Shown here in pieces: positions 1,230 to 42,087 of a DNA stretch of 64,000 bases (the first letter of the stretch is position 1; each line of letters begins with the position of its first letter). Source of the DNA: Eledone cirrhosa (lineage: Eukaryota); contig OZ024743.1 in NCBI GenBank assembly GCA_964016885.1, positions 258,540,001 through 258,604,000 of the forward strand, given 5' to 3'. The notes beneath the pieces were generated by a model. That model saw nothing but the letters and a program-made list of their open reading frames with translations. It was not told where the DNA came from and ran no database searches. The position numbers and the translations under genes were made by a program.

Positions 1230-3593
1230 TTTTTCAATGTTTGTACACATACATGACCTCCTTTCCAACGCAAGAGACATACAGATACATATGTATATAT
1301 TGATGTACAGTGGGGTGACATATATTATATTATTTCTGAATGGCAATTTAAATTCAAAATTAAAATCACACTAAAACAGAATCAAAGCAAAATTAAAATT
1401 AAAATACAACATCAATGCAAAATTAAAATACAATCGGCAGTTAACGTAGATAATGCAAGAGGGTAGTTTGATAGTCAGTTGTAGTAGTTATTGTATGCAT
1501 TAGTTACACGTGGGGCATGCACGTGTGTCTTATTTATATATGATTATTGTGCAGCAGGGTGTTACATGTAATACAAGCACTTTAAGCGGGTAATCAAGAG
1601 TATTATGGAGGTTGTAGTGGCAAGGTATTTTCTGTATATGATAAAGAAGCTTGTGTGCAGAAAAATAGTATAAATGAGAAGCAAAATAATGTTATGGTTT
1701 TTGTAAACACCACCATTTTCACATTCAGGAAACGTAATATATAGTTTATATGTCCTTCACATAATTAACGATGAATCCGTATTGGATGTTTGATGTATTA
1801 AGTTAAATTATTATAGCTTGTTGCGGCTCAGTGTTCTTTAATCCAATTTTATAGAGCAGGTTGTTTCTGTTGCGAGAATTTACATCGTTTTATTATCCGG
1901 AAGTATGTGTGTGATTAAGGGGAGTTAATGCGTGAGGGGAGGTAACTAGCTGATTTCTATAACTAAATTTATTATTCCAACATACATTAAAAGGTGTCTC
2001 AATTGAGTCCCTTATATAGACGGTTATATATAGTTTCCAATTTTAAGTATCCTATCTTTAATTACAGTCTACTCTATCATGAAGTACTAAAGGTATCTAT
2101 ATTAGGATGATTACTCCCTATCATAGAGTGCTACAATTGAATATTCCATACGAAGAGTCAGATCTACATATCAAAGTTCTTTGTAAATGTAGTCTACTCA
2201 CAGAACCTGTCAGTGGCCCTATTAGAACCACGTCTATATAACCCCTGGTAAGCTCTGGGTCAGTGTATGGCTGACTGCATGGCAAAGCTAAATATCTCTA
2301 GGGTAGACCAAAAAGCATTTCTCACTTACAATGTCATTAATCTATCTATCAAGTTATACATGCATATATAACTCACATACCACTTGTACATAATTCATTG
2401 TACTCAACATATAGGTTATACAGCTCTCTTATGTTAATAAATTAATCCTCTATTTATCTAATGATAGCACTCCATAAATACAACAACATTTGCACAAATA
2501 ATTCATTGCTGAATTCGATGTTTAAAGTTTACATATAGTGATATAATACAGTCTAAGTAATTGAAAGTAATTATACTAAAAGTAGGTGTACATGGGATAT
2601 TTTTAGGGTAAAAGGTTATAGATAGATGGAACGAATTGTGTTAAGATAGGGTGGATCAGTGAGTGTGGAGTTGTGGTGTAAGATGTGCCCTTGAGGTGTA
2701 GTGCTAGAAGTGGTGATGGGTTCAAGCCTGAAATTGCTATATATTGGGTTTAAAGTTTTGGAAGGAGTGTCGGAAGCGGTGCTGGCATGACGCGAACACT
2801 TCCAATTTTTTATTAAGGGGGTTATGGTTTGAGAAGATAATAGTATGGGTCTCTAGTAGACAGAGGTTACAAAATTTATTAGGTGGTTTGTATGATGCCG
2901 CCTTACCTATCACTTCCCATTTAAGTGTATAAGATCTATTTTTAGTTTATAGATAGTGTATGTAGCTAGATAGTGAAGTGGAGTTGGCTAGACTGTGTTT
3001 TTTGAAAGAATGGAGGTGCGAATTGTATCTGGTTTTGAAGCAGTTTGAAGTAGAGCCTATATAGGTTTCAGAAGAGTTGCTAGTTGTGACGGTGCATGAG
3101 TATATGATATCCTTGATTAAGCATTTTTTATCTAAAGGGCGGGTTCTATTAGATCTACAGTTACAATTATTTTGGATGTTAGCCTGCCGGTTATTATGTT
3201 GTGTAGAAAATCTGGATGATAGTTGTTGCATTATGGTTATGGGGGTTGTCGCTCTCAGCGTTATTGCTTACATTAGTGCTATTACTATTGTTATCAGGGT
3301 TAGTTGATATAATGTTACTTTGAAGGTTTACCCCCTGTTGTGATTTAGTTTGTTGGAAGTAAGAATTAATTTTTCTTTTATTGCTACTAGCTATGTGGTA
3401 TGCTATGTTAGGCGTGGTAGAGTAGGAGATTTTAATTGTGTTTTTTGTTTAAAAGGCTATGGTACTTGTGGCCAGATGGGAAGTTTTTATCCAGGAGTGA
3501 GAAGAAAGCCTTAGGTAGGTTGGTAGAGACGTATGTATCTGTATGTCTCTTGCGTTGGAAAGGAGGTCATGTATGTGTACAAACATTGAAAAA

Positions 3594-3640
3594 TGCTCCG
3601 AAGACTTCAAGCTTCGGTTTGGATGAAACAATTGTAAGCG
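3594..3640 (+). ncRNA. Hammerhead motif in the inverted pLTR (copy of 1183-1229)
   Basis: tgct-CCGAAGA-cttcaagc ttcg gtttggat-GAAA-caattg-TA-agcg-AATAAA. Confidence 0.72.
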
Positions 3641-3699
3641 AATAAATGCTTTGAACATAGCTTTGATTCCAGCAGTGTCCAGCAGAAGCAAAGGGGACA

Positions 3700-3743
3700 A
3701 TCGTTGATGCATTTCAAACTCAACTGGTTCTCATCAGGACAAT
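3700..3743 (-). ncRNA. Minimal hammerhead motif, second family, apparently CpG-decayed
   Basis: rc: attgtc-CTGATGA-gaac cagttga gttt-GAAA-tgca-TC-aacgat; stem III ATGCAT is palindromic. Confidence 0.68.
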
Positions 3744-4005
3744 CTCTCCCGCTCTTAACAGCTGAACTTTGAAAACAGGCAAGAATATATAGTTATCTCG
3801 TCTGTGTAAATGAGGTGATTAATCTCATTTGCATATGAAGTTGTATAAGTTGGCTCAACTTATAATAAAATAGAATTAGAATTTAGCTTCGAAAATAGCT
3901 GTATACAAATACGTATTTGAATTTTGTGAGCTACCAGTGTTTTTGCATAGCTACGTCTTTCTAAATTCTAATTCTATTCTATATATATATGTATGTATGT
4001 GTATG

Positions 4006-7927: not shown

Positions 7928-9552
7928 ATCATCATCATCATCATCATCAACGTTTAACGTCCGTGTTCCACGCTTGCATGGGTTTGGACGGGGGTAGTCC
8001 CACTTGAGGCAAGAGTGATTGTCTTGCTCGCATAGGACTGTCTGGCGGGTTTTCTACAGTTGGATGCCCTTCCTAACACCAACCACATTTACAGTGTGGG
8101 TCTGGGAGGTTTTTACCGTGTTGCCTACACGGCCACATTACAGCATGGACTGTGTGTTTTTTTGTCGTGACACCTACACGATCTCATTTGTTTCGGCCTG
8201 GATGGCGCGGCACCAACATAACTTTACATAGAACGGTGTGGTGTGGATGGGGTGGGGGTGGTGGCGGGACGGGGTGTATTTTGTTAGAGATGCCTACTGG
8301 CAAGGCGGGTCTTCTCTGTTACTGAGTACCGCCAAAGGTCTCGGTCCAGTGACATTGTCTTGGAGAGGTGTAAGTGTGTGAGGTCGGAGTTTATCAGCTC
8401 ATCCCATGTTTTTCTAGGTCTGCCTATTCCGTGGCTACCGTCTATCTTTATTGCCCTGCACTTTGTTATATAGCTATCGACTTTCATGCGCATCACGTGT
8501 CCATACCAACGCAGCCTTCTCTCGAGTAAACAACATCTGATCCCTCTTATCTCTAATTTTTTCCTTAGTTCGTTTATGCTTTGCCGTTCACGTATATTAC
8601 TGTTACACATCCAGCGGAGCATGCAAGCTTCGTTCCTCTCTAGTCTGCGTATATCCTCTGCACACAATGCCCAGGTCTCACTACCATGCAACATTGCTGT
8701 TCGTATGCAGGCATCGTACAACCTGCCTTTCATTTTTAGGGAGAACCCTTTAGCAGCTAATAGTGGTATAAGCTCTCTGAACTTTTTCCAACCAGTTCTG
8801 ACTCTAGCTACAGTACTTTCAGAGCACCCTCCCCCACTGCTGATTTTATCACCCAGGTAACGGAAGCTGTCCACTATTTCTATAGAACCCTCTGCGCAAT
8901 TGAAAGAGCTAGTATTTTGTGGGCACTTGCTGCTACTTATTGCACCAGAACACCGGCCACATGTAAAATCTATGTTCTTAGTTAGCTTACCTGTGATCCC
9001 ACTACATCTTTTATGCACCCATACTTTGCATTTAGGACATAAAATGGAGTTTCTACCTACGCCTTTCCTACACACCGAGCACGACCATTTCCCAGAAGGG
9101 ACCGCCGCCTTGTTTTCTTTCCTACAAACTAGAACTTTGGTCTTAGCCAGGTTAATTTTAAGTCCTTTTGACTCTAGGCCGTGCTTCCATGTTTGGAATT
9201 TCTTCTCTAGCTCGGCCATTGATTCCGCTATGAGTGTCAGGTCGTCTGCGTATAGGAGTTCCCATGGGCAGCCTGTCTTGAACTCCTCTGTTATAGCCTG
9301 AAGGGCAATAATAAATAGTAGGGGGCTGAGAACAGAGCCCTGATGGACGCCAACTTTTACGCTAAACTCTTCACTATATTCGTTGTTAATTCTAACCTTG
9401 CTGACTGTTTCTTTATACATGGCTTGTATAGCCCTCACAAGCCATTCGTCAACGCCTAGTTTTCTAAGAGCCCACCAGATAATGGAGCGGGGGACTCTGT
9501 CGAAGGCTTTCTCCAGGTCGACAAAAGCTAAGTAGAGGGGTTTACCTTTAGC

Positions 9553-9553
<1 letters not shown>
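7928..9553 (-). mobile_element. RTE LINE 3' part (RT C-terminal half, 3' UTR, (GAT)n tail)
   Basis: ORF 8284..9438 has GVHQGSVLSPLLF, ELLYADDL, HGSETW and LRWYGHVMR; (ATC)n tract at 7928-7949. Confidence 0.95.
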
Positions 9554-9584
<31 letters not shown>

Positions 9585-9585
<1 letters not shown>

Positions 9586-10454
9586 TCTATAGAAATAGTG
9601 GACACCTTCCGTTACCTGGGTGACAAAATCAGCAGTGGTGGAGGGTGCTCTGAAAGTACAGTAGCTAGAGTCAGAACGGGATGGAAAAAGTTCAGAGAGC
9701 TTATACCACTATTGGCCACTAAAGGGTTCTCTCTAAAAATGGAAGGCAGACTGTATGATGCCTGCATACGAACAGCAATGTTACATGGCAGTGAGACTTG
9801 GGCATTGTGTGCAGAGGATATACACAGACTGGAGAGGAACGAAGCTTGCATGCTCCGTTTGATGTGTAATAGTAATATACATGAACGGCAAAGCATAAAT
9901 GAACTAAGGGAGAAATTAGGAATAAGAGGAATCAGATGTTGTTTACTCGAGAGAAGACTACGTTGGTATGGTCACGTGATGCGCATGAAAGATGACAGCT
10001 GTATAAAAAAGTGCAGGGCGATAAAAATAGACGGTAGCCACGGAGTAGGCAGACCCAGAAAAACCTGGGACGACTTGATAAATTCCGACCTCACACACTT
10101 ACACCTCTCCAAGACAATGTCACTACACCGAGATTTTTGGTGCTACACAGTAATACAGAAAACCCGCCATGCCTAAGTACAAAGCGAAACCTACAGTCAG
10201 TAGGCACCTCTAACAAAAATAGACCCCCGTCCCACCACCCCCACCCCATCCACACCACCCCTTTCGATGAAGGTAACACGGTAAAAACCTCCCAGTCCAC
10301 ACTGTAAATGTGGTTGGTGTTAGGAAGGGCATCCAGCCATAGAAAACCCGCCAGGCAGTCCTATACGAGCAAGACAACTAATCTTGCCTCAAGTGGGAAA
10401 ATTCCCGTCCAAACCCATGCAAGCGTGGAAGATGATGATGATGATGATGATGAT
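9585..10454 (+). mobile_element. RTE LINE 3' fragment, same family, opposite orientation
   Basis: ORF 9598..10176 is nearly identical to the C-terminus of 8284..9438; ends in (GAT)n. Confidence 0.95.
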
Positions 10455-22890: not shown

Positions 22891-24468
22891 TATAATGTAT
22901 ACATAATTATAAATAATATTAATATTATTATTATAAATGTATGTATGCATTTATGTATATATATGTCAGGTCGCTCTTCAGCACTTCTGGTAACATGTAA
23001 CCCTGTACAATCTGTGCATGGTCAGGTCGTCAGCGACTAAACTGGCAACCCCACCAAGCTTGCATGGTGAGGAGGGAAAATTTGGGCACACTACAGGATG
23101 AAAAACAAAACCCATCAAAAGGCAGAGGAATTCAGGAGAGTCAATGGCCATCCAATCAAATTTTTTTTTTTCCTTGTGGAGAGAGAGACTCCTAGTCTTC
23201 ATTAAGACATCTTTCTAGGGGAAGATCACTCTGATATAAAACCTGCGACTTCATTTGCATCCAATGATGTAGACTAGTACTTCTTTTTGGGTAAAAGCAT
23301 TCGATGTTTAGAGAGTGGGATTAAAAAAGCATCAAGCACAGGCATCACTTGATATGTGACATTTTTTACAATACATGGTATTGTTGGCCATAGCAGGACT
23401 AAAAAGACACATGCACGATGCTCATGCTTAAGTATCAAGTGTTGGCATTATTGCATACATATATGTATGTAGGTACACATACATATATATATAGATGTGT
23501 GTTGGGTGTAGCAAAACTAAGGCGAGAGATTTTAACTTTTTCCCCCAGTTGACTACATAGATCATTGCAACCACAGATGCTGACCGTTTGGCCCTATAGA
23601 TAAGCAATTCATCTCGTTCTGTACTCAATGAATTTTACTTCCTTTGTTTTGGGATTTATGTCTCCAAATTGTTTAGAGAAATGGTTTTTTAGAGGCCATC
23701 TGCTTATTATCAGAAGATATCATCATTCTCATAAATATTGACATTGGCTGTCCTGGGTTCTGGTCTTTTTGGGCCAGCAAGCTAAGACATTCATTCTCCC
23801 ATTCAGCTTCCAGCAAAGGTTAGTTACATTCAACTTTTAAGACTGCTACAACACGCATCCCTGCTAAACCATCACATAAACATTATACACAATTTTACTA
23901 TGACTGTTTGTTGTTTTTCCTATGTTATCACAATTACTTCGAAGCAAGTTATTGCTAAATAAAATTATTAGAGTTGCGGCTTTGTTATTGTTGATTCACT
24001 ACTTGCTATGTCAACCATACATCTCAAATCAGAGACAACCAGCCAATCTAATCAACAATACAACTACACACATTTGATCAACTAACTAACAAAATTATAA
24101 TGTCACTACATTTGATGACCCTAATGAATGAACATACCTTCTGATGTTGAGGAGATGGAACTGTCTGTTTTTCCAATTTCTTTTTTGTGCCATTGTCTTT
24201 GTCTTGTGCACCCCACTGTTTTGAATTCATATTCTAAAAACTTAGCCATGCAGGCTTTTTTTAAACTATCATATAATATATATATATATATAAATATATA
24301 TAAAAAAGAAAATTTCACTCTACATGGTTGAATAAATGTAATCTGAGTTTTTCGAATATTAATAATAACATTCAATTCGTTTGCAATTATGCAAACAAGC
24401 TTCAATTTTATAGCCATGTTAGTAGAATGAACACTTCATTCTTGCTCTTATGTTGGCATGCGAACAGA

Positions 24469-24514
24469 ACTGCAGACACTAATGTTTCTGGGTATCACCC
24501 TTCATCAGTACAGC
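24469..24514 (-). ncRNA. Type I hammerhead, canonical core, GUC site
   Basis: rc: gctgta-CTGATGA-agggt gat accca-GAAA-cattagtg-TC-tgcagt. Confidence 0.82.
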
Positions 24515-25175
24515 TCACTGTTCACCTGCCAAACTGTCAGAGCTAGTGGAAATATATGCTATTTTCAAAAATACACAGTGACTGATCGACCTGATTTGTA
24601 TATTAGCAGACTGGCTGATCAGTCAGATCTGCATATTAGCAGATCCATTGATCAGCCATATTTGCATATCAGCAGACTGGCCTGTCAGTTTCCTGAATAC
24701 AAGTGATAAAAGGCCGGCTTTGCCAAATTCAAATAAAAAAGAAAATTTCACTCTACATGGCTGAATTCGTTTGCAATTATGCAAACAAGCCTCAATTTTA
24801 TAGCCATGTCAGTAGAATGAACCCTTAATTATTGTTCTTATGTTGGCATGTGAATAGAACTGCAGACAGTAATGTTTCGAATGTTATTATTAATATTTGA
24901 AAAACTCAGATTACATTTATTGTATTCAGCCATGTAGAGCGAAATTTTCTTTTTTATTTGAATTTGGCAAAGCCGGCCATTTATCGCTCGTATTCAGGAA
25001 ACTGATAGGCCAGTCTGCTGATATGCAAATCTGGCTGATCAATGGATCTGCTAATATGCAGATCTGACTGATCAGCCAGTCTGCTAATATACAAATCAGG
25101 TCGATCAGTCACTGTGTATTTTTGAAAATAGCATATATTTCCACTAACTCTGACAGTTTGGCAGGTGAACAATGA

Positions 25176-25221
25176 GCTGTACTGATGAAGCGTGATACCC
25201 AGAAACATTAGTGTCTGCAGT
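25176..25221 (+). ncRNA. Type I hammerhead, mirror copy
   Basis: gctgta-CTGATGA-agcgtgataccca-GAAA-cattagtg-TC-tgcagt. Confidence 0.78.
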
Positions 25222-25470
25222 TCTGTTCGCATGCCAACATAAGAGCAAGAATGAAGTGTTCATTCTACTGACATGGCTATAAAATTGAGGCTCGTTTGCA
25301 TAATTGCAAATGAATCGAATGTTATTATTAATATTCGAAAAACTCAGATTACATTTGAATATATATATATATATATATTGTTATGCTTTGGGAGGGTCAT
25401 GTTGCCAACAAATTCAGAAACGAATATATATATATCATCATCGTTTAATGTCAGTCTTCCATGGAAATAT

Positions 25471-30706: not shown

Positions 30707-31972
30707 CAGGGTGCGGACGATATTTGTTCGCAAGATTACTGTCTAAGAAAAAATAACACAGTAGTTTTATTTTTTAAGATATATTTATCAAACTTAGGTC
30801 AGTTTGTCTTCATGACTTGTTCTTTCGATCTCACTCGATAAACCCGCCATTGGCTTTGATGATGGCCTCAAGGCGGCTACAAGCCTTCGTCACTGTCCCC
30901 CGACTTAGGCCCCTAAAGGCACTTGTGATTCTGGCCTTCAGATCGTCTTTCGTATTGCAGCTAGATCTGTTGGTGTCTCGTTCCACTGTGCCCCACACAA
31001 AGAAGTTGAGGGGGTTGCAGTCAGGTGAGCTAGGCCAGATGTCAGGTGAAGTGTGGTCGACGAGGTTCTCTGACAGCCAGGATTGGGTCTTTCGGCTGGT
31101 ATGGCAGGGCGATGAGTCTTGCTGCCACACGTACGGCCTACCTGGTCGATCCAGGGCTTTACTACCTCGCTCAGAATGCGGATGTAGCCATCGGTGTTCA
31201 GCTTGAAGCCCTCAGGGAAGAAGTGAGGTGGCATAATGTCACCTTGACTGCTGACGACACCTAAGACTAATGTTGTCGCTGGAAACTTTGTCTGCATGAC
31301 TCTGGGCACGTCTTTGGATGAGACAGGGAGCCACCTGTTGTTTTGGGAGATCTTCTGGTCTTGGCAGAAGTTTTTCTCATCGGAGAAAAACCACAGCATG
31401 TCTGGCTCCAGTGGGTGTTTCAACTTGTTGATCAGCTTCTTTTTGTGCTTCAGTTGCATCGCCTTTGACAGAAATTGTCCTTTCCTCATCTTGTATGAAA
31501 CGTAACGAATATCTTCATGTACCACCAGCCTAATTAGCTTTTCATCCACGCCTTTCTCCCTTGCAATGGCATGCATCGACTTGCTAGGTTCATTGTTGAT
31601 GATATCCTGAACTTCAGTGACAAACTCGGGCGTTCTGAAGGCATCAGATCATCGATCATGTGTTTTCCTCTCTGATGTTGCTTCGTAGTTGAATCCTGAA
31701 TCTTCCAATTCCTTTCTGACCTTTTCCACCATTCTCCTGCTGACGCTGAGAAAGTCTGAAATTTCATTATTTGTCCTCCTGGCGTGGATTCCAAGAAGAA
31801 CTCTGAGTCTCTTCCACAAATTTGGAGGTTCAAAATTATTGATAAAAATTATTCTGAAAATAAATAATGGAAATATAGTCGCTGTTTTTATGAAGACAAG
31901 AGTGACAACAGAAGTAAAAAAAATTTGCATAAAATTAGCAGTTGAAAATTGCGAACAAATATCGTCCACATC

Positions 31973-36777: not shown

Positions 36778-38063
36778 CAGGGTGTGGACAATATTTGTTC
36801 GCAATTTTCAACTGCTAATTTTATGCAAATTTTTTGTACTTCCGTTGTCACTCTTGTCTTCATAAAAACAGTGACTATTTCCATTATTTATTTTCAGAAT
36901 AATTGATTATGAATAATTTTGAACCTCCAAATTTGTGGAAGAGACACAGAGTTCTTCTTGGAATCCGCACCGGGAGGACAAATAAGGAAATTTCAGATTC
37001 TCAGCATCAGCAGGAGGATGGTGGAAAAGGTCAGAAGGGAATTGGAAGATTCAGGATTCGACTACGAAGCAACATCAGAGAAGAAAACACATGATTGACG
37101 ATCTAATGCCTTCAGAACACCCGAGTTCGTCGCTGAAGTTCAGGATATCATCAACAATGAACCTAGCAAGTCGATGCGTGCCATTGCAAGGGAGAATGGC
37201 GTGGATGAAAAGCTCATTAGGCTGGTGGTACATGAAGACATTCGCTACATTTCATACAAGATGAGGAAAGGGCAATTTCTGTCAAAGGCAATGCAAGAAA
37301 AGCAACTGAAGCACGCAATGAAGCTGATCAACAAGTTGAAACACCCACTGGAGCCAGACATGCTGTGGTTTTTCTCCGACAAGAAAAACTTCTGCCAAGA
37401 CCAGAAGATCAACTCCCAGAACAACAGGTGGCTTGCTGTCTCATCCAAAGACGTGCCCAGAGTCATGCAGACAAAGTTTCCAGCGACAACATTAGTCTTA
37501 GGTGTCGTCAGCAGTCAAGGTGACATTATGCCACCTCACTTCTTCCCTGAGGGCCTCAAGCTGAACACCGATGCCTACATCCGCATTCTGAGCGAGGTAG
37601 TAAAGCCCTGGATCGACCATGTAGCTGCAGGTAGGCCGTACGTGTGGCAGCAAGACTCATCGCCCTGCCATACCAGCCGAAAGGCCCAAGCCTGGCTGTC
37701 AGAGAACCTCGTCGACCACACTTCACCTGACATGTGGCCTCCCAGCTCGCCTGACTGCAACCCGCTCGATTTCTTTGTGTGGGGTGCAGTGGAACGAGAC
37801 ACCAACAGATCTAGCTGCAATACGAAAGACGATCTGAAGGCCAGAATCACAAGTGCCTTTAGGGGCCTAAGTCGTGGTCAGTGACAAAGGCCTGTAGCCG
37901 GTTCCAAGGCCCCCTTGAGGCCGTCATCAAAGCCAATGAGATCGAAAGAACAAGTGATGAAGACAAACTGACCCAAGTTTGATAAATAAATCTTAAAAAA
38001 TAAAACTACTGTGTTATTTTTTCCTAGACTGTAACCTTGCGAACAAATATTGTCCGCACCCTG
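36778..38063 (+). mobile_element. Tc1/mariner DD37D (maT) transposon, second copy
   Basis: TIRs and TA flanks; ORF 37174..37884 has 37 residues between QQD and NPLD. Confidence 0.94.
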
Positions 38064-38139: not shown

Positions 38140-38830
38140 TATAGGATATGCTTTCATATACACCCCTCTTCCCAGTCCTTCTGCAGACATGTCTGGAAAT
38201 TTGCCAATACTGCCTTCAGCTCCTGTATTGATTAAAATGTAATCCCCTTAACATTGTCTTTCTTGTGTTGAGACAGGAAGAAGTCATAAAAAGCCAAGCT
38301 AAGGCTGTAAGGTGGGTGTTGTTCCACTTTCATTTCTCTGTTGATCATCCAAGTGGTCATTAGCATTGACTTGTGGCATTGTCTTGATTAAACCAATACT
38401 TTCCACTGCTCCACTGCTGTGTCCTATTTTTTCTCATCCGCTTCCTGAACCATTTTCAAAACTTAAAGGTAATATGCCTTATTGATGGTTTGCCTCTCAG
38501 AAACCCATTCAACATGAATTAACTCCTGGGAGTCAAAGAAAGAAATTACTATGGGCTTCTCTTGTGACCTGCTCTTCTTTACTTTCTTGGGCCTGAGTGA
38601 GGACATGTGCTTCCACTGGGCACTTTGGTGTTTGTCCTTAGGGTCATAATTGACTACCCAACTCTTGTTGTAAGTCATTACTTGATTCGGAAAACCAGAA
38701 TCAACCTCTTTCATATGGAGAATCTTGGTGTAACATTTCTTACAAAGCTGCCTCTGGTTGTTAGAGAGGATCTTTTGCATGGCACAGATTTTGTGTAGAT
38801 CCAGATCTTTGGTCAGAATTTTATCCTGTC
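38140..38830 (-). mobile_element. Decayed mariner transposase
   Basis: SWVVNYDP..QSAQW...SFFD and HPPYS..LA.YDFFL. Confidence 0.8.
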
Positions 38831-40548: not shown

Positions 40549-40701
40549 GAAACACACAGATACATGCGGACACACACATATACATGAATGCATCCACACC
40601 AAACCGCGAGTTAAGGGTGCCAACCTCACCGATGTTGCTCAATGAATGACTGGGACAGACCAATCCGGTTGAACCAGACTGAACCAGTATCAGAGTTAAA
40701 A

Positions 40702-41107
40702 ATACATTATGAAGAGAGAAGGAACATTTAGATATAATTAGTAATAAAATGTATCATACCTAAACTGCTCCTAGATTCCTCGACTACGTAGTTTCGTGGC
40801 ATAAACAAAAACAATACATCATAAAGATATAGAGTCCTTGCGAGCTCTGTTTCTCGACCGTTATATCGCGTGACTATCTCCCCCTCCGCCTTTTGGGATT
40901 CTTTCTCACGTCGTGTAGACGCGTTCTTGAGGCTAGTAAAATGAGGTATCCTCTTGATAAGTCGGCAGACCTCGCAAGGACTCTATATCTTTATGATGTA
41001 TTGTTTTTGTTTATGCCACGAAACTACGTAGTCGAGGAATCTAGGAGCAGTTTAGGTATGATACATTTTATTACTAATTATATCTAAATGTTCCTTCTCT
41101 CTTCATA

Positions 41108-41112
<5 letters not shown>
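40702..41112. mobile_element. Fold-back HHR cassette (arms ~40702-40849 and ~40966-41112)
   Basis: near-perfect ~145-bp inverted arms, followed by (TA)n. Confidence 0.88.
40949..41038 (+). ncRNA. Hammerhead with U3-A8 covariant core and long stem II insert
   Basis: tcctc-TTGATAA-gt(c)ggca...tgccac-GAAA-ctacgtag-TC-gagga; ACTACGTAGT is palindromic. Confidence 0.75.
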
Positions 41113-41153
<41 letters not shown>

Positions 41154-41295
41154 TAGGTAGTATGGTGAAATACTGGTGTTGGTACCATAACTCCTATGGG
41201 CCACCTTGAGCCAATCCTCTGTGAAATGCACGTAACAGGCCAATACAATAAATATTATTTTTCATATGTAAACGAAATTTTTTCGTTTTTTCTAC

Positions 41296-41329
<34 letters not shown>

Positions 41330-41408
41330 AGTTTATCCCGGGTTGAATTGGGGGTAACCACAGTAAGTAAGGTACTCAATACAAAGCAGAGTATAAATAT
41401 TAATATAG

Positions 41409-41467
41409 AAATGGCTTCCTGATGATTTCTCCTGAATGAAACAGTTCTAGTCCTGTAGAAGCCATTT
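41409..41467 (+). ncRNA. Hammerhead, canonical core, 10-bp stem I
   Basis: aaatggcttc-CTGATGA-tttc tcct gaat-GAAA-cag ttctagtc ctg-TA-gaagccattt. Confidence 0.82.
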
Positions 41468-41472
41468 ATATA

Positions 41473-41511
<39 letters not shown>

Positions 41512-41518
<7 letters not shown>

Positions 41519-41760
41519 TGTACTAAACAACATAAGGCAATTATTCCATTTACTAGTGGTTTCTTAAAAGCAAAAAATTTTGCTTTCAATCCTCAGAATG
41601 AAAAAATCTGAGGATTGAAAGCAAATTTCTTTGCTTTTAAGAAACCACTGGTTAATAGAATAATTGCCTTATGTTGTTTATTACATAACTATTAAGCTCT
41701 GTTACCTACATAGAGCACTCTTTTTTCCTGGACTTTTCCGACGGAATTACTTCATTCACA
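41512..41760. mobile_element. Fold-back HHR cassette (arms 41512-41598 and 41606-41692)
   Basis: inverted arms with a 7-nt spacer, TA tracts on both sides. Confidence 0.85.
41545..41602 (-). ncRNA. Hammerhead, canonical core; mirror copy 41608-41653 (+) has a damaged stem I
   Basis: rc: ttcatt-CTGAGGA-ttgaaagcaaa attt tttgcttttaa-GAAA-ccactag-TA-aatgga. Confidence 0.78.
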
Positions 41761-41828
41761 CATATATATATATATATATATTAATGAAAAAGAACAAAGG
41801 AACTATTATGACATTATAACAAGTTTAT

Positions 41829-41875
41829 TGCCGACAGCCGTTTCGTCCGACCATATGGTGGGACTTTTCAAGGCA
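41829..41875 (-). ncRNA. Hammerhead with U3-A8 covariant core, GUC site
   Basis: rc: tgcc-TTGAAAA-gtcccacc atat ggtcggac-GAAA-cggctg-TC-ggca, AATAAA overlapping the stem end. Confidence 0.82.
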
Positions 41876-42087
41876 TATAACATGTGATATACATACATAC
41901 ATATACAAATACAAATATATTCATTTTACTAAGGCTAAATAATAAGTCTTCTTACTCTTGAGTTTCACTTAGGTAAAACTAGAGAGTGCCAAAACTCACT
42001 ATTTAGCCTTACTAAACTAAATATTATAATTCTACTTCAGTATTTAGTACTCTTTTCTCTCAACCATCAACTACATACAGATATATG

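What the first reader, a model, noticed from the sequence alone, without database searches (positions are those of the whole stretch)
40949..41875. Two independent U3-A8 covariant catalytic cores (TTGATAA, TTGAAAA)
Seen: two unrelated families replace CTGAnGA with TTGAnAA while keeping intact stems and GUC sites. Known: C3-G8 is a tertiary Watson-Crick pair and U3-A8 is a functional natural variant. This compensatory double change is strong internal evidence that the motifs were selected ribozymes. A CTGAnGA-only search would miss them.
Basis: partly seen in the sequence, partly recalled or inferred. Interest (0 to 1): 0.7.

Follow-up and report, generated by a model that had tools for sequence, protein, structure and literature searches.

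The report
U3-A8 hammerheads in Penelope-type repeats
Two leftover ends of jumping repeats in an animal genome each carry a hammerhead RNA motif, predicted to cut itself, with a swapped core base pair that runs through both repeat families; this swap is already described in Penelope retrotransposons, so the finding is real but fairly ordinary.

Summary
Both motifs are real type I hammerheads: HHR1 (+ 40949-41038, core TTGATAA, 59-nt stem II) and HHR2 (- 41875-41829, core TTGAAAA). A strict scan finds these 2 in the window and 0 in 150 shuffles. Reads and contigs laid on each motif list no C3 or G8 variant (6 weak rows hidden). Variation falls in stem II, N7 and the flanks (0 of 37 and 0 of 9 variant positions at constrained sites). 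So U3-A8 is the family state, not private decay. Both fragments end in (TA)n, and HHR1 lies in a two-armed inverted insertion, the Penelope-like element (PLE) pattern. No ORF is attached, so PLE end versus retrozyme stays open. Independent origin of the two swaps was not shown. U3-A8 is published in nature (PMC3088659) and in Schistosoma PLE hammerheads (about 1,300 hits, PMC4209133). Two C3-G8 hammerheads lie between the pair, so this kilobase is a pile-up of four ribozyme-bearing insertions. Cleavage is untested. New member of a known kind; low interest.

The parts
40949..41038 (+). HHR1: type I hammerhead motif, U3-A8 core (TTGATAA 40954-40960), 59-nt stem II region, 10-nt palindromic stem III, predicted cut after C 41033
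   Evidence: family state
40850..41110 (+). Element 1, forward arm: 3' end fragment of a multi-copy repeat that holds HHR1 and ends in (TA)n at 41111-41150
   Evidence: (1889 reads of X23, 548 contigs of X1, several different flanks)
40702..40849 (-). Element 1, inverted 5'-truncated arm: a copy of 40966-41113 that lacks the TTGATAA half; identical over 40702-40844; both arms carry the rare C at 41093/40722
41829..41875 (-). HHR2: type I hammerhead motif, U3-A8 core (TTGAAAA 41871-41865), 4-bp stem II plus distal hairpin, 8-nt palindromic stem III, predicted cut after C 41833
   Evidence: family state
41782..41884 (-). Element 2: 3' end fragment of a second multi-copy repeat that holds HHR2 and ends in a (TA)n run just below 41782
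   Evidence: (128 and 164 reads, 92 contigs, several different flanks)
41409..41467 (+).
   Evidence: top score 18.3; fold z -3.1
41544..41603 (-). Neighbouring canonical C3-G8 hammerhead (CTGAGGA, GTA site) inside an 86-nt inverted repeat 41512-41692; context

Best explanation
These are two type I hammerhead motifs with a U3-A8 core that is the family state of two multi-copy, (TA)n-inserted repeats, likely 3' end (pseudo-LTR) fragments spread by Penelope-like retrotransposon enzymes and predicted to self-cleave in the parent RNA. Shown: the motifs; U3-A8 without a listed C3 or G8 variant among reads and contigs at >=80% identity; variation confined to stem II, N7 and flanks; the (TA)n ends; the two-armed inverted form of element 1. 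Inferred: in a tandem parent transcript the U3-A8 Watson-Crick pair stands in for C3-G8 and keeps the active site. Two copies would pair through their palindromic stem III (predicted duplex -12.9 and -9.7 kcal/mol; the stem III strand alone forms no stable hairpin) and cut after the GUC at 41033 and 41833, probably slowly or with help from the element's protein, as shown for another PLE. These particular genomic copies are likely inert leftovers. Any transcript through both arms of element 1 is predicted to bury HHR1 in a long hairpin (97 kcal/mol penalty).
For: Motifs beyond chance. HHR1 family: about 440-500 X23 reads over the core, plus X1 contigs, and no row at 40954 or 40959 among the 40 rows shown at >=4%. 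Depth steps up at 40940 and down at 41039, so divergent relatives align over the ribozyme and not its flanks. HHR2 family: 109 and 139 reads over the core; all 10 variant rows shown at >=3%; none at 41871 or 41866, one at N7 (41867) and five rows in the distal stem II and loop. 0 of 37 variant positions fall at 30 constrained sites of 259 (expected 4.3, P 0.007); 0 of 9 fall at 34 of 103 (expected 3.0, P 0.023). The active fold lies within 1.1 kcal/mol (HHR1 alone) and 2.8 kcal/mol (HHR2) of the minimum. Inverted 5'-truncated arms and (TA)n targets are PLE hallmarks (PMC8557442 passages). U3-A8 is reported in PLE hammerheads (PMC4209133) and as active in vitro (PMC3088659). A GIY-YIG remnant with an upstream C3-G8 motif lies elsewhere in the window.
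Against: No ORF or tandem unit is attached to either fragment, and neither motif matches the published Hydra/Naiad/Chlamys consensus set by short-motif search. The PLE link therefore rests on insertion anatomy. Six weaker variant rows were not shown and could include a minor C3 or G8 form. RAD reads pile on few loci (2-25 start places for most variant rows at the ribozymes), so reads are not independent copies and the P values are optimistic. Only relatives >=80% alike were recruited. Unconstrained folding of the motifs alone is not unusually stable (z -1.5 and -1.4), and from the arm junction the HHR1 active fold costs 7.6 kcal/mol. Cleavage was not measured; published PLE minimal hammerheads cut poorly in vitro (PMC4209133).
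Confidence: 0.8

Rival explanations
1. The swap arose once in an ancestral PLE or retrozyme lineage and both families inherited it, so the two cores are not independent covariation events.
For: Both motifs share TTGAnAA followed directly by G10.1-U10.2, GAAAC, a GUC site and a C2.1-G1.1 pair, unlike the three C3-G8 motifs of the window. Earlier notes from this genome list several more U3-A8 repeat families (unchecked).
Against: No sequence likeness outside the core, and very different stem II lengths (59 against 20 nt).
Confidence: 0.4
2. One or both fragments are ends of non-coding retrozymes (small ribozyme-bearing parasites of PLEs) rather than of protein-coding PLEs. The ribozyme chemistry is the same, but it would cut multimers into units that circularise.
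For: No ORF is attached. Retrozymes carry type I hammerheads and are argued to derive from PLE pseudo-LTRs (PMC7229834 passages; 10.64898/2026.07.22.740005 abstract and one passage). Earlier notes describe 320-bp and 591-595-bp U3-A8 retrozyme-like units in this genome (unchecked).
Against: No tandem unit in this window. Look-ups by sequence found no look-alike among the noted windows.
Confidence: 0.4
3. The motifs are conserved as an RNA structure or protein-binding signal for retrotransposition, and cleavage is weak or incidental.
For: In the Anolis PLE, ribozyme-dead mutants still supported insertion in vitro, cleavage needed the protein, and no RNA-seq reads ended at the cut site (PMC11167929 passages). 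Minimal PLE hammerheads cut poorly.
Against: All catalytic letters, the GUC site and a Watson-Crick 3-8 pair are kept while loops drift, which is the pattern expected if catalysis is selected.
Confidence: 0.15
4. These are private decay mutations of C3-G8 hammerheads.
For: Both changes are common transitions; three other motifs of the window are C3-G8; 6 weak rows are hidden.
Against: No listed C3 or G8 variant in either family. The element 1 copy differs from the common form mainly at 40932 and 41093, and its arms are identical over 143 nt, so it is young.
Confidence: 0.03

Closest known systems
U3-A8 hammerheads of the Cercyon PLE family of Schistosoma mansoni (Cervera and De la Pena 2014, PMC4209133; parts 1-2 of 4 of the main text read, supplements not seen)
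   Same: Type I hammerhead in PLE end repeats, U3-A8 in place of C3-G8, short stem I (4-5 bp), conserved G10.1-C11.1, palindromic stem III region, mostly single dispersed fragments, pairs of motifs on opposite strands within 100-700 bp
   Different: Here stem III is a 2-3 bp helix with a palindromic loop rather than absent; there is no extra base between positions 9 and 10.1; HHR1 has a 59-nt stem II region; the host is another animal; no parent ORF was found
Natural U3-A8 core variants (Perreault et al. 2011, PMC3088659; section 8 and passages read)
   Same: Same covariation of the 3-8 pair, stated there to occur in several natural hammerheads and to be active in vitro (citing Przybilski and Hammann 2007, not held, not seen)
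   Different: Here the variant is fixed in two multi-copy mobile repeat families of one animal genome
Hydra-clade PLE hammerheads (Craig et al. 2021, PMC8557442; passages, supplement parts 2 and 52 of 59, four supplement searches)
   Same: Type I hammerhead near the 3' end, (TA)n targets, inverted 5'-truncated arms; by eye, the neighbouring motif at 41409-41467 and the GIY-YIG remnant at 2740-3760 resemble this clade
   Different: All Hydra-clade hammerheads in File S2 have C3-G8 cores (the search there used canonical descriptors), and none matches HHR1 or HHR2
Animal non-LTR retrozymes (PMC7229834 passages; bioRxiv 10.64898/2026.07.22.740005 abstract and one passage)
   Same: Non-coding repeats with type I hammerheads and a weak palindromic stem III, linked to PLEs
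   Different: Retrozymes are defined by short tandem units and circular RNA; neither was seen or testable here
Rfam RF00163 Hammerhead_1
   Same: Same strand order; HHR2 aligns over the whole model
   Different: HHR2 scores 20.1 bits against a gathering score of 34; HHR1 has no hammerhead match at E<=10

Membership tests
Type I hammerhead ribozyme | Order stem I - NUGANNA - stem II - GAAA - stem III - UH - stem I, with all three helices able to form | tested here: met
   active fold within 1.1 and 2.8 kcal/mol of the minimum
Type I hammerhead ribozyme | Watson-Crick pair between core positions 3 and 8 | tested here: met
   U3-A8 in both motifs and in both families
Type I hammerhead ribozyme | Self-cleavage after H17 | not testable with these tools
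   needs an in vitro assay
Rfam RF00163 | Score at or above the gathering threshold (34 bits) | tested here: not met
   20.1 bits for HHR2, no match for HHR1
Penelope-like element pseudo-LTR | Hammerhead near the 3' end of the element | tested here: met
   72 and about 48 nt from stem I to the (TA)n run
Penelope-like element pseudo-LTR | Inverted 5'-truncated arm and microsatellite target | tested here: met
   element 1: 153-nt inverted arms, 98%, and (TA)n; element 2: (TA)n end, no inverted arm in this copy, one X1 contig folds back at 41874
Penelope-like element pseudo-LTR | Linked ORF with PLE reverse transcriptase and GIY-YIG endonuclease | tested here: inconclusive
   no ORF on these truncated fragments; no genome held to look for parents
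Hydra-clade PLE | Sequence kinship with published Hydra consensus ends or RT | tested here: inconclusive
   short motifs of HHR1 and HHR2 give no hammerhead match in the published set; a divergent member is not excluded
Non-LTR retrozyme | Short non-coding tandem units, one hammerhead per unit | tested here: inconclusive
   no tandem unit in the window; the fragments are shorter than a typical unit; other loci not readable
Non-LTR retrozyme | Circular RNA in tissue | not testable with these tools
   no RNA run was listed

The most novel reading that the evidence does not exclude
U3-A8 has been fixed separately, more than once, in (TA)n-targeting Penelope-type families of one animal genome, because a slower core that needs a dimer or the element's own protein is favoured during retrotransposition. 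The C3-G8 and U3-A8 families lying side by side would then form a natural series for testing why PLEs keep hammerheads at all.
Probability: 0.15. Interest if true: 0.5.

Novelty: new member of a known kind. Interest (0 to 1): 0.22.

Why it matters
Modest. It adds two animal repeat families to the known U3-A8 class and shows again that CUGANGA-only descriptors and Rfam thresholds undercount hammerheads in retroelement-rich genomes. The long stem II of HHR1 hides it further. The role of hammerheads in PLEs is still open (PMC8557442, PMC11167929), and matched C3-G8 and U3-A8 families from one genome would be useful test material, but this locus does not settle that question.

Tried and rejected
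Own-genome search: no genome is held, so there is no copy count or parent element. Rfam: 0 matches at gathering score in the window. The miRNA matches at E<=10 come from inverted repeats and (TA)n and were rejected. Metagenome pattern scan for TTGAWAA-type motifs: 35 loci, 0 of 35 with stem I of 4 or more pairs (best 3), taken as chance; the gap range was too short to catch HHR1-type long stem II. Shared ancestry from the 3' tails: an eye-catching likeness, not significant (381 of 2000). Expression: no RNA holder listed; this says nothing either way. Homolog search of the GIY-YIG remnant among longer proteins: 76 candidates, none at E<=0.001. Look-ups of earlier findings by sequence, by words and near the locus were empty. 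Short motifs against the Craig 2021 supplement: the four longer motifs gave 0 matches; the shorter ones matched only outside hammerheads, judged by eye. A scrambled strand order, as noted for other repeats in this genome, was considered and rejected: both motifs read in plain type I order. Paper searches for a cephalopod report: 'hammerhead, octopus, Penelope', 'hammerhead, U3-A8', 'hammerhead, C3U, G8A' and one search showed none describing these families; two searches were seen as listings only. Przybilski and Hammann 2007 is not held. Supplements of PMC4209133 were not opened and may list mollusc U3-A8 families.

Full report
Setting. The window is AT-rich animal DNA full of (TA)n runs and broken mobile elements. 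No whole genome is held.

Observation. HHR1 runs + 40949-41038: stem I TCCTC/GAGGA, core TTGATAA at 40954-40960, a 59-nt stem II region closed by G-C, GAAA at 41020-41023, a 10-nt self-complementary stem III and GTC at 41031-41033. HHR2 runs - 41875-41829: stem I TGCC/GGCA, core TTGAAAA at 41871-41865, a 4-bp stem II with a distal hairpin, GAAA, an 8-nt self-complementary stem III and GTC at 41835-41833. A strict descriptor left open at positions 3 and 8 finds these 2 motifs in the window and none in any of 150 block shuffles; it was written after seeing them. A looser scored scan gives 5 motifs at score 14 or more against 0.017 per shuffle in 60 shuffles. The other three are C3-G8. Rfam misses both at gathering score; HHR2 reaches 20.1 of 34 bits on RF00163 and HHR1 has no hammerhead match.

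I laid public runs on each motif at 80% likeness. HHR1 (runs X23, X1, X4, X12): 1889 raw reads of X23 and 548 contigs of X1 were laid, with several different flanks, so this is a multi-copy repeat. About 440-500 X23 reads cover the core. None of the 40 variant rows shown (4% or more) lies at 40949-40960 or 41020-41038; 6 weaker rows were not shown. X23 depth rises from about 157 to 420 at 40940 and falls from about 434 to 155 at 41039, with loose ends at both edges: divergent relatives match over the ribozyme and not beyond it. Several stem II changes turn predicted G.U pairs into A-U pairs (40978, 40979, 40998; read against the fold). HHR2 (X23, X24, X1, X4): 128 and 164 reads and 92 contigs were laid; 109 and 139 reads cover the core. 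All 10 variant rows (3% or more) are shown: one is at N7, the free core position (41867), five are in the distal stem II and loop, and four lie outside the ribozyme. None is at 3 or 8. Counting positions, 0 of 37 fall at the 30 constrained sites of 259 (expected 4.3, P 0.007), and 0 of 9 at the 34 of 103 (expected 3.0, P 0.023). These P values are optimistic: RAD reads pile on few loci, positions are not independent, and only relatives at least 80% alike are recruited. Still, private decay is rejected: U3-A8 is the family state in both.

What the elements are. Element 1 is a two-armed insertion: 40697-40849 and 40966-41118 are 153-nt inverted arms, identical over 40702-40844. Both arms carry a C at 41093/40722 where 1098 of 1123 X23 reads have T, so they likely came from one template. 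The forward arm ends in (TA)n 72 nt after the ribozyme; element 2 ends in (TA)n about 48 nt after its ribozyme. Inverted 5'-truncated arms, (TA)n targets and a hammerhead near the 3' end are the pattern described for Penelope-like elements (PMC8557442, passages). Two further hammerheads with C3-G8 cores lie between the pair (+ 41409-41467, - 41544-41603), so this kilobase is a pile-up of four different ribozyme-bearing insertions in TA runs. Neither fragment carries an ORF, and neither motif matches the published Hydra, Naiad or Chlamys set. A protein-coding PLE end and a non-coding retrozyme cannot be told apart here.

How it most likely works. Inferred: in a tandem parent transcript the motif folds as a type I hammerhead; the active fold lies 1.1 kcal/mol (HHR1 alone) and 2.8 kcal/mol (HHR2) above the minimum. 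U3-A8 replaces the C3-G8 Watson-Crick pair. That the ribose at position 8 and G12 do the acid-base chemistry is recalled, not from a call. The stem III strands form no stable hairpin alone but pair with a second copy (-12.9 and -9.7 kcal/mol), the dimer mode proposed for animal type I motifs (PMC4209133, parts 1-2 of 4). Cutting would follow the GUC at 41033 and 41833 and would trim the tandem precursor. Against a strong role: minimal PLE hammerheads cut poorly in vitro, and in the Anolis PLE the ribozyme needed the protein and was dispensable for insertion (PMC11167929, passages). These genomic copies are probably inert; with both arms transcribed, the HHR1 fold costs 97 kcal/mol, and from the arm junction 7.6. 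No RNA data were available.

Independence. The two elements share no detectable sequence outside the core. That makes them distinct families but does not show two origins of U3-A8: they share several core-proximal letters, and unchecked earlier notes list more U3-A8 families in this genome, including one pair of sister families said to differ by this swap. I put single origin at about 0.4.

Comparison and novelty. Natural U3-A8 covariation was reported in 2011, and stated there to be active in vitro (PMC3088659, section 8). The same swap was reported in 2014 in Schistosoma Cercyon PLE hammerheads, with about 1,300 hits (PMC4209133). My searches showed no paper on these two families; the 2014 supplements were not opened and may bear on that. 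Verdict: observation confirmed; interpretation partly supported (selected family-level variant yes, independence unshown); new member of a known kind; interest 0.22.

Noticed in passing
window 41409-41467 (+) and 41544-41603 (-): Two canonical C3-G8 type I hammerheads with GTA sites lie between the two U3-A8 motifs. The first has a 10-bp stem I and a U.U mismatch at 10.1-11.1, by eye like the Hydra-clade motifs in PMC8557442 File S2; the second sits in an 86-nt inverted repeat.
   Followed up: partly
window 24467-24516 (-) and about 25170-25225 (+): A C3-G8 hammerhead in two inverted copies of another multi-armed insertion flanked by TA runs; the + copy has a damaged stem II.
   Followed up: partly
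window about 2740-3760 (-): Frameshifted C-terminal remnant of a PLE ORF (GIY-YIG, Pfam E 0.009, below the curated cut-off) that resembles Hydra-clade proteins by eye. A decayed C3-G8 hammerhead at about 3745-3690 lies just upstream, read by eye, as expected for a pseudo-LTR/ORF junction.
   Followed up: partly
window 40690-41110; runs X4, X12 and others: Element 1 words were found in runs labelled as 17 coded organisms. The two laid from other organisms (X4, X12) hold near-identical pieces, U3-A8 core included, at very low depth (about 6 and 13). Carry-over, diet or environmental DNA of the host is the plain reading; close relatives or horizontal transfer were not excluded.
   Followed up: partly
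window about 40560-40700: The inverted arm of element 1 runs on into about 140 nt of non-TA sequence that the forward arm lacks. It may be an unusually long one-sided PLE tail or a separate insertion; it has no other copy in the window.
   Followed up: no
window 41874, run X1: One contig folds back on itself right at the 5' edge of HHR2, which suggests inverted two-armed copies of element 2 elsewhere in the genome.
   Followed up: no
window 41917-42024: A 52-nt imperfect inverted repeat (77%) directly beyond element 2; not examined.
   Followed up: no
window 30938-31648, 37099-37884, 38463-38828 and 8284-10176: Remnants that look like Tc1/mariner-type transposases (Transposase_1, E 2e-8, for 38466-38828) and RTE-type reverse transcriptases (by eye).
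   Followed up: no
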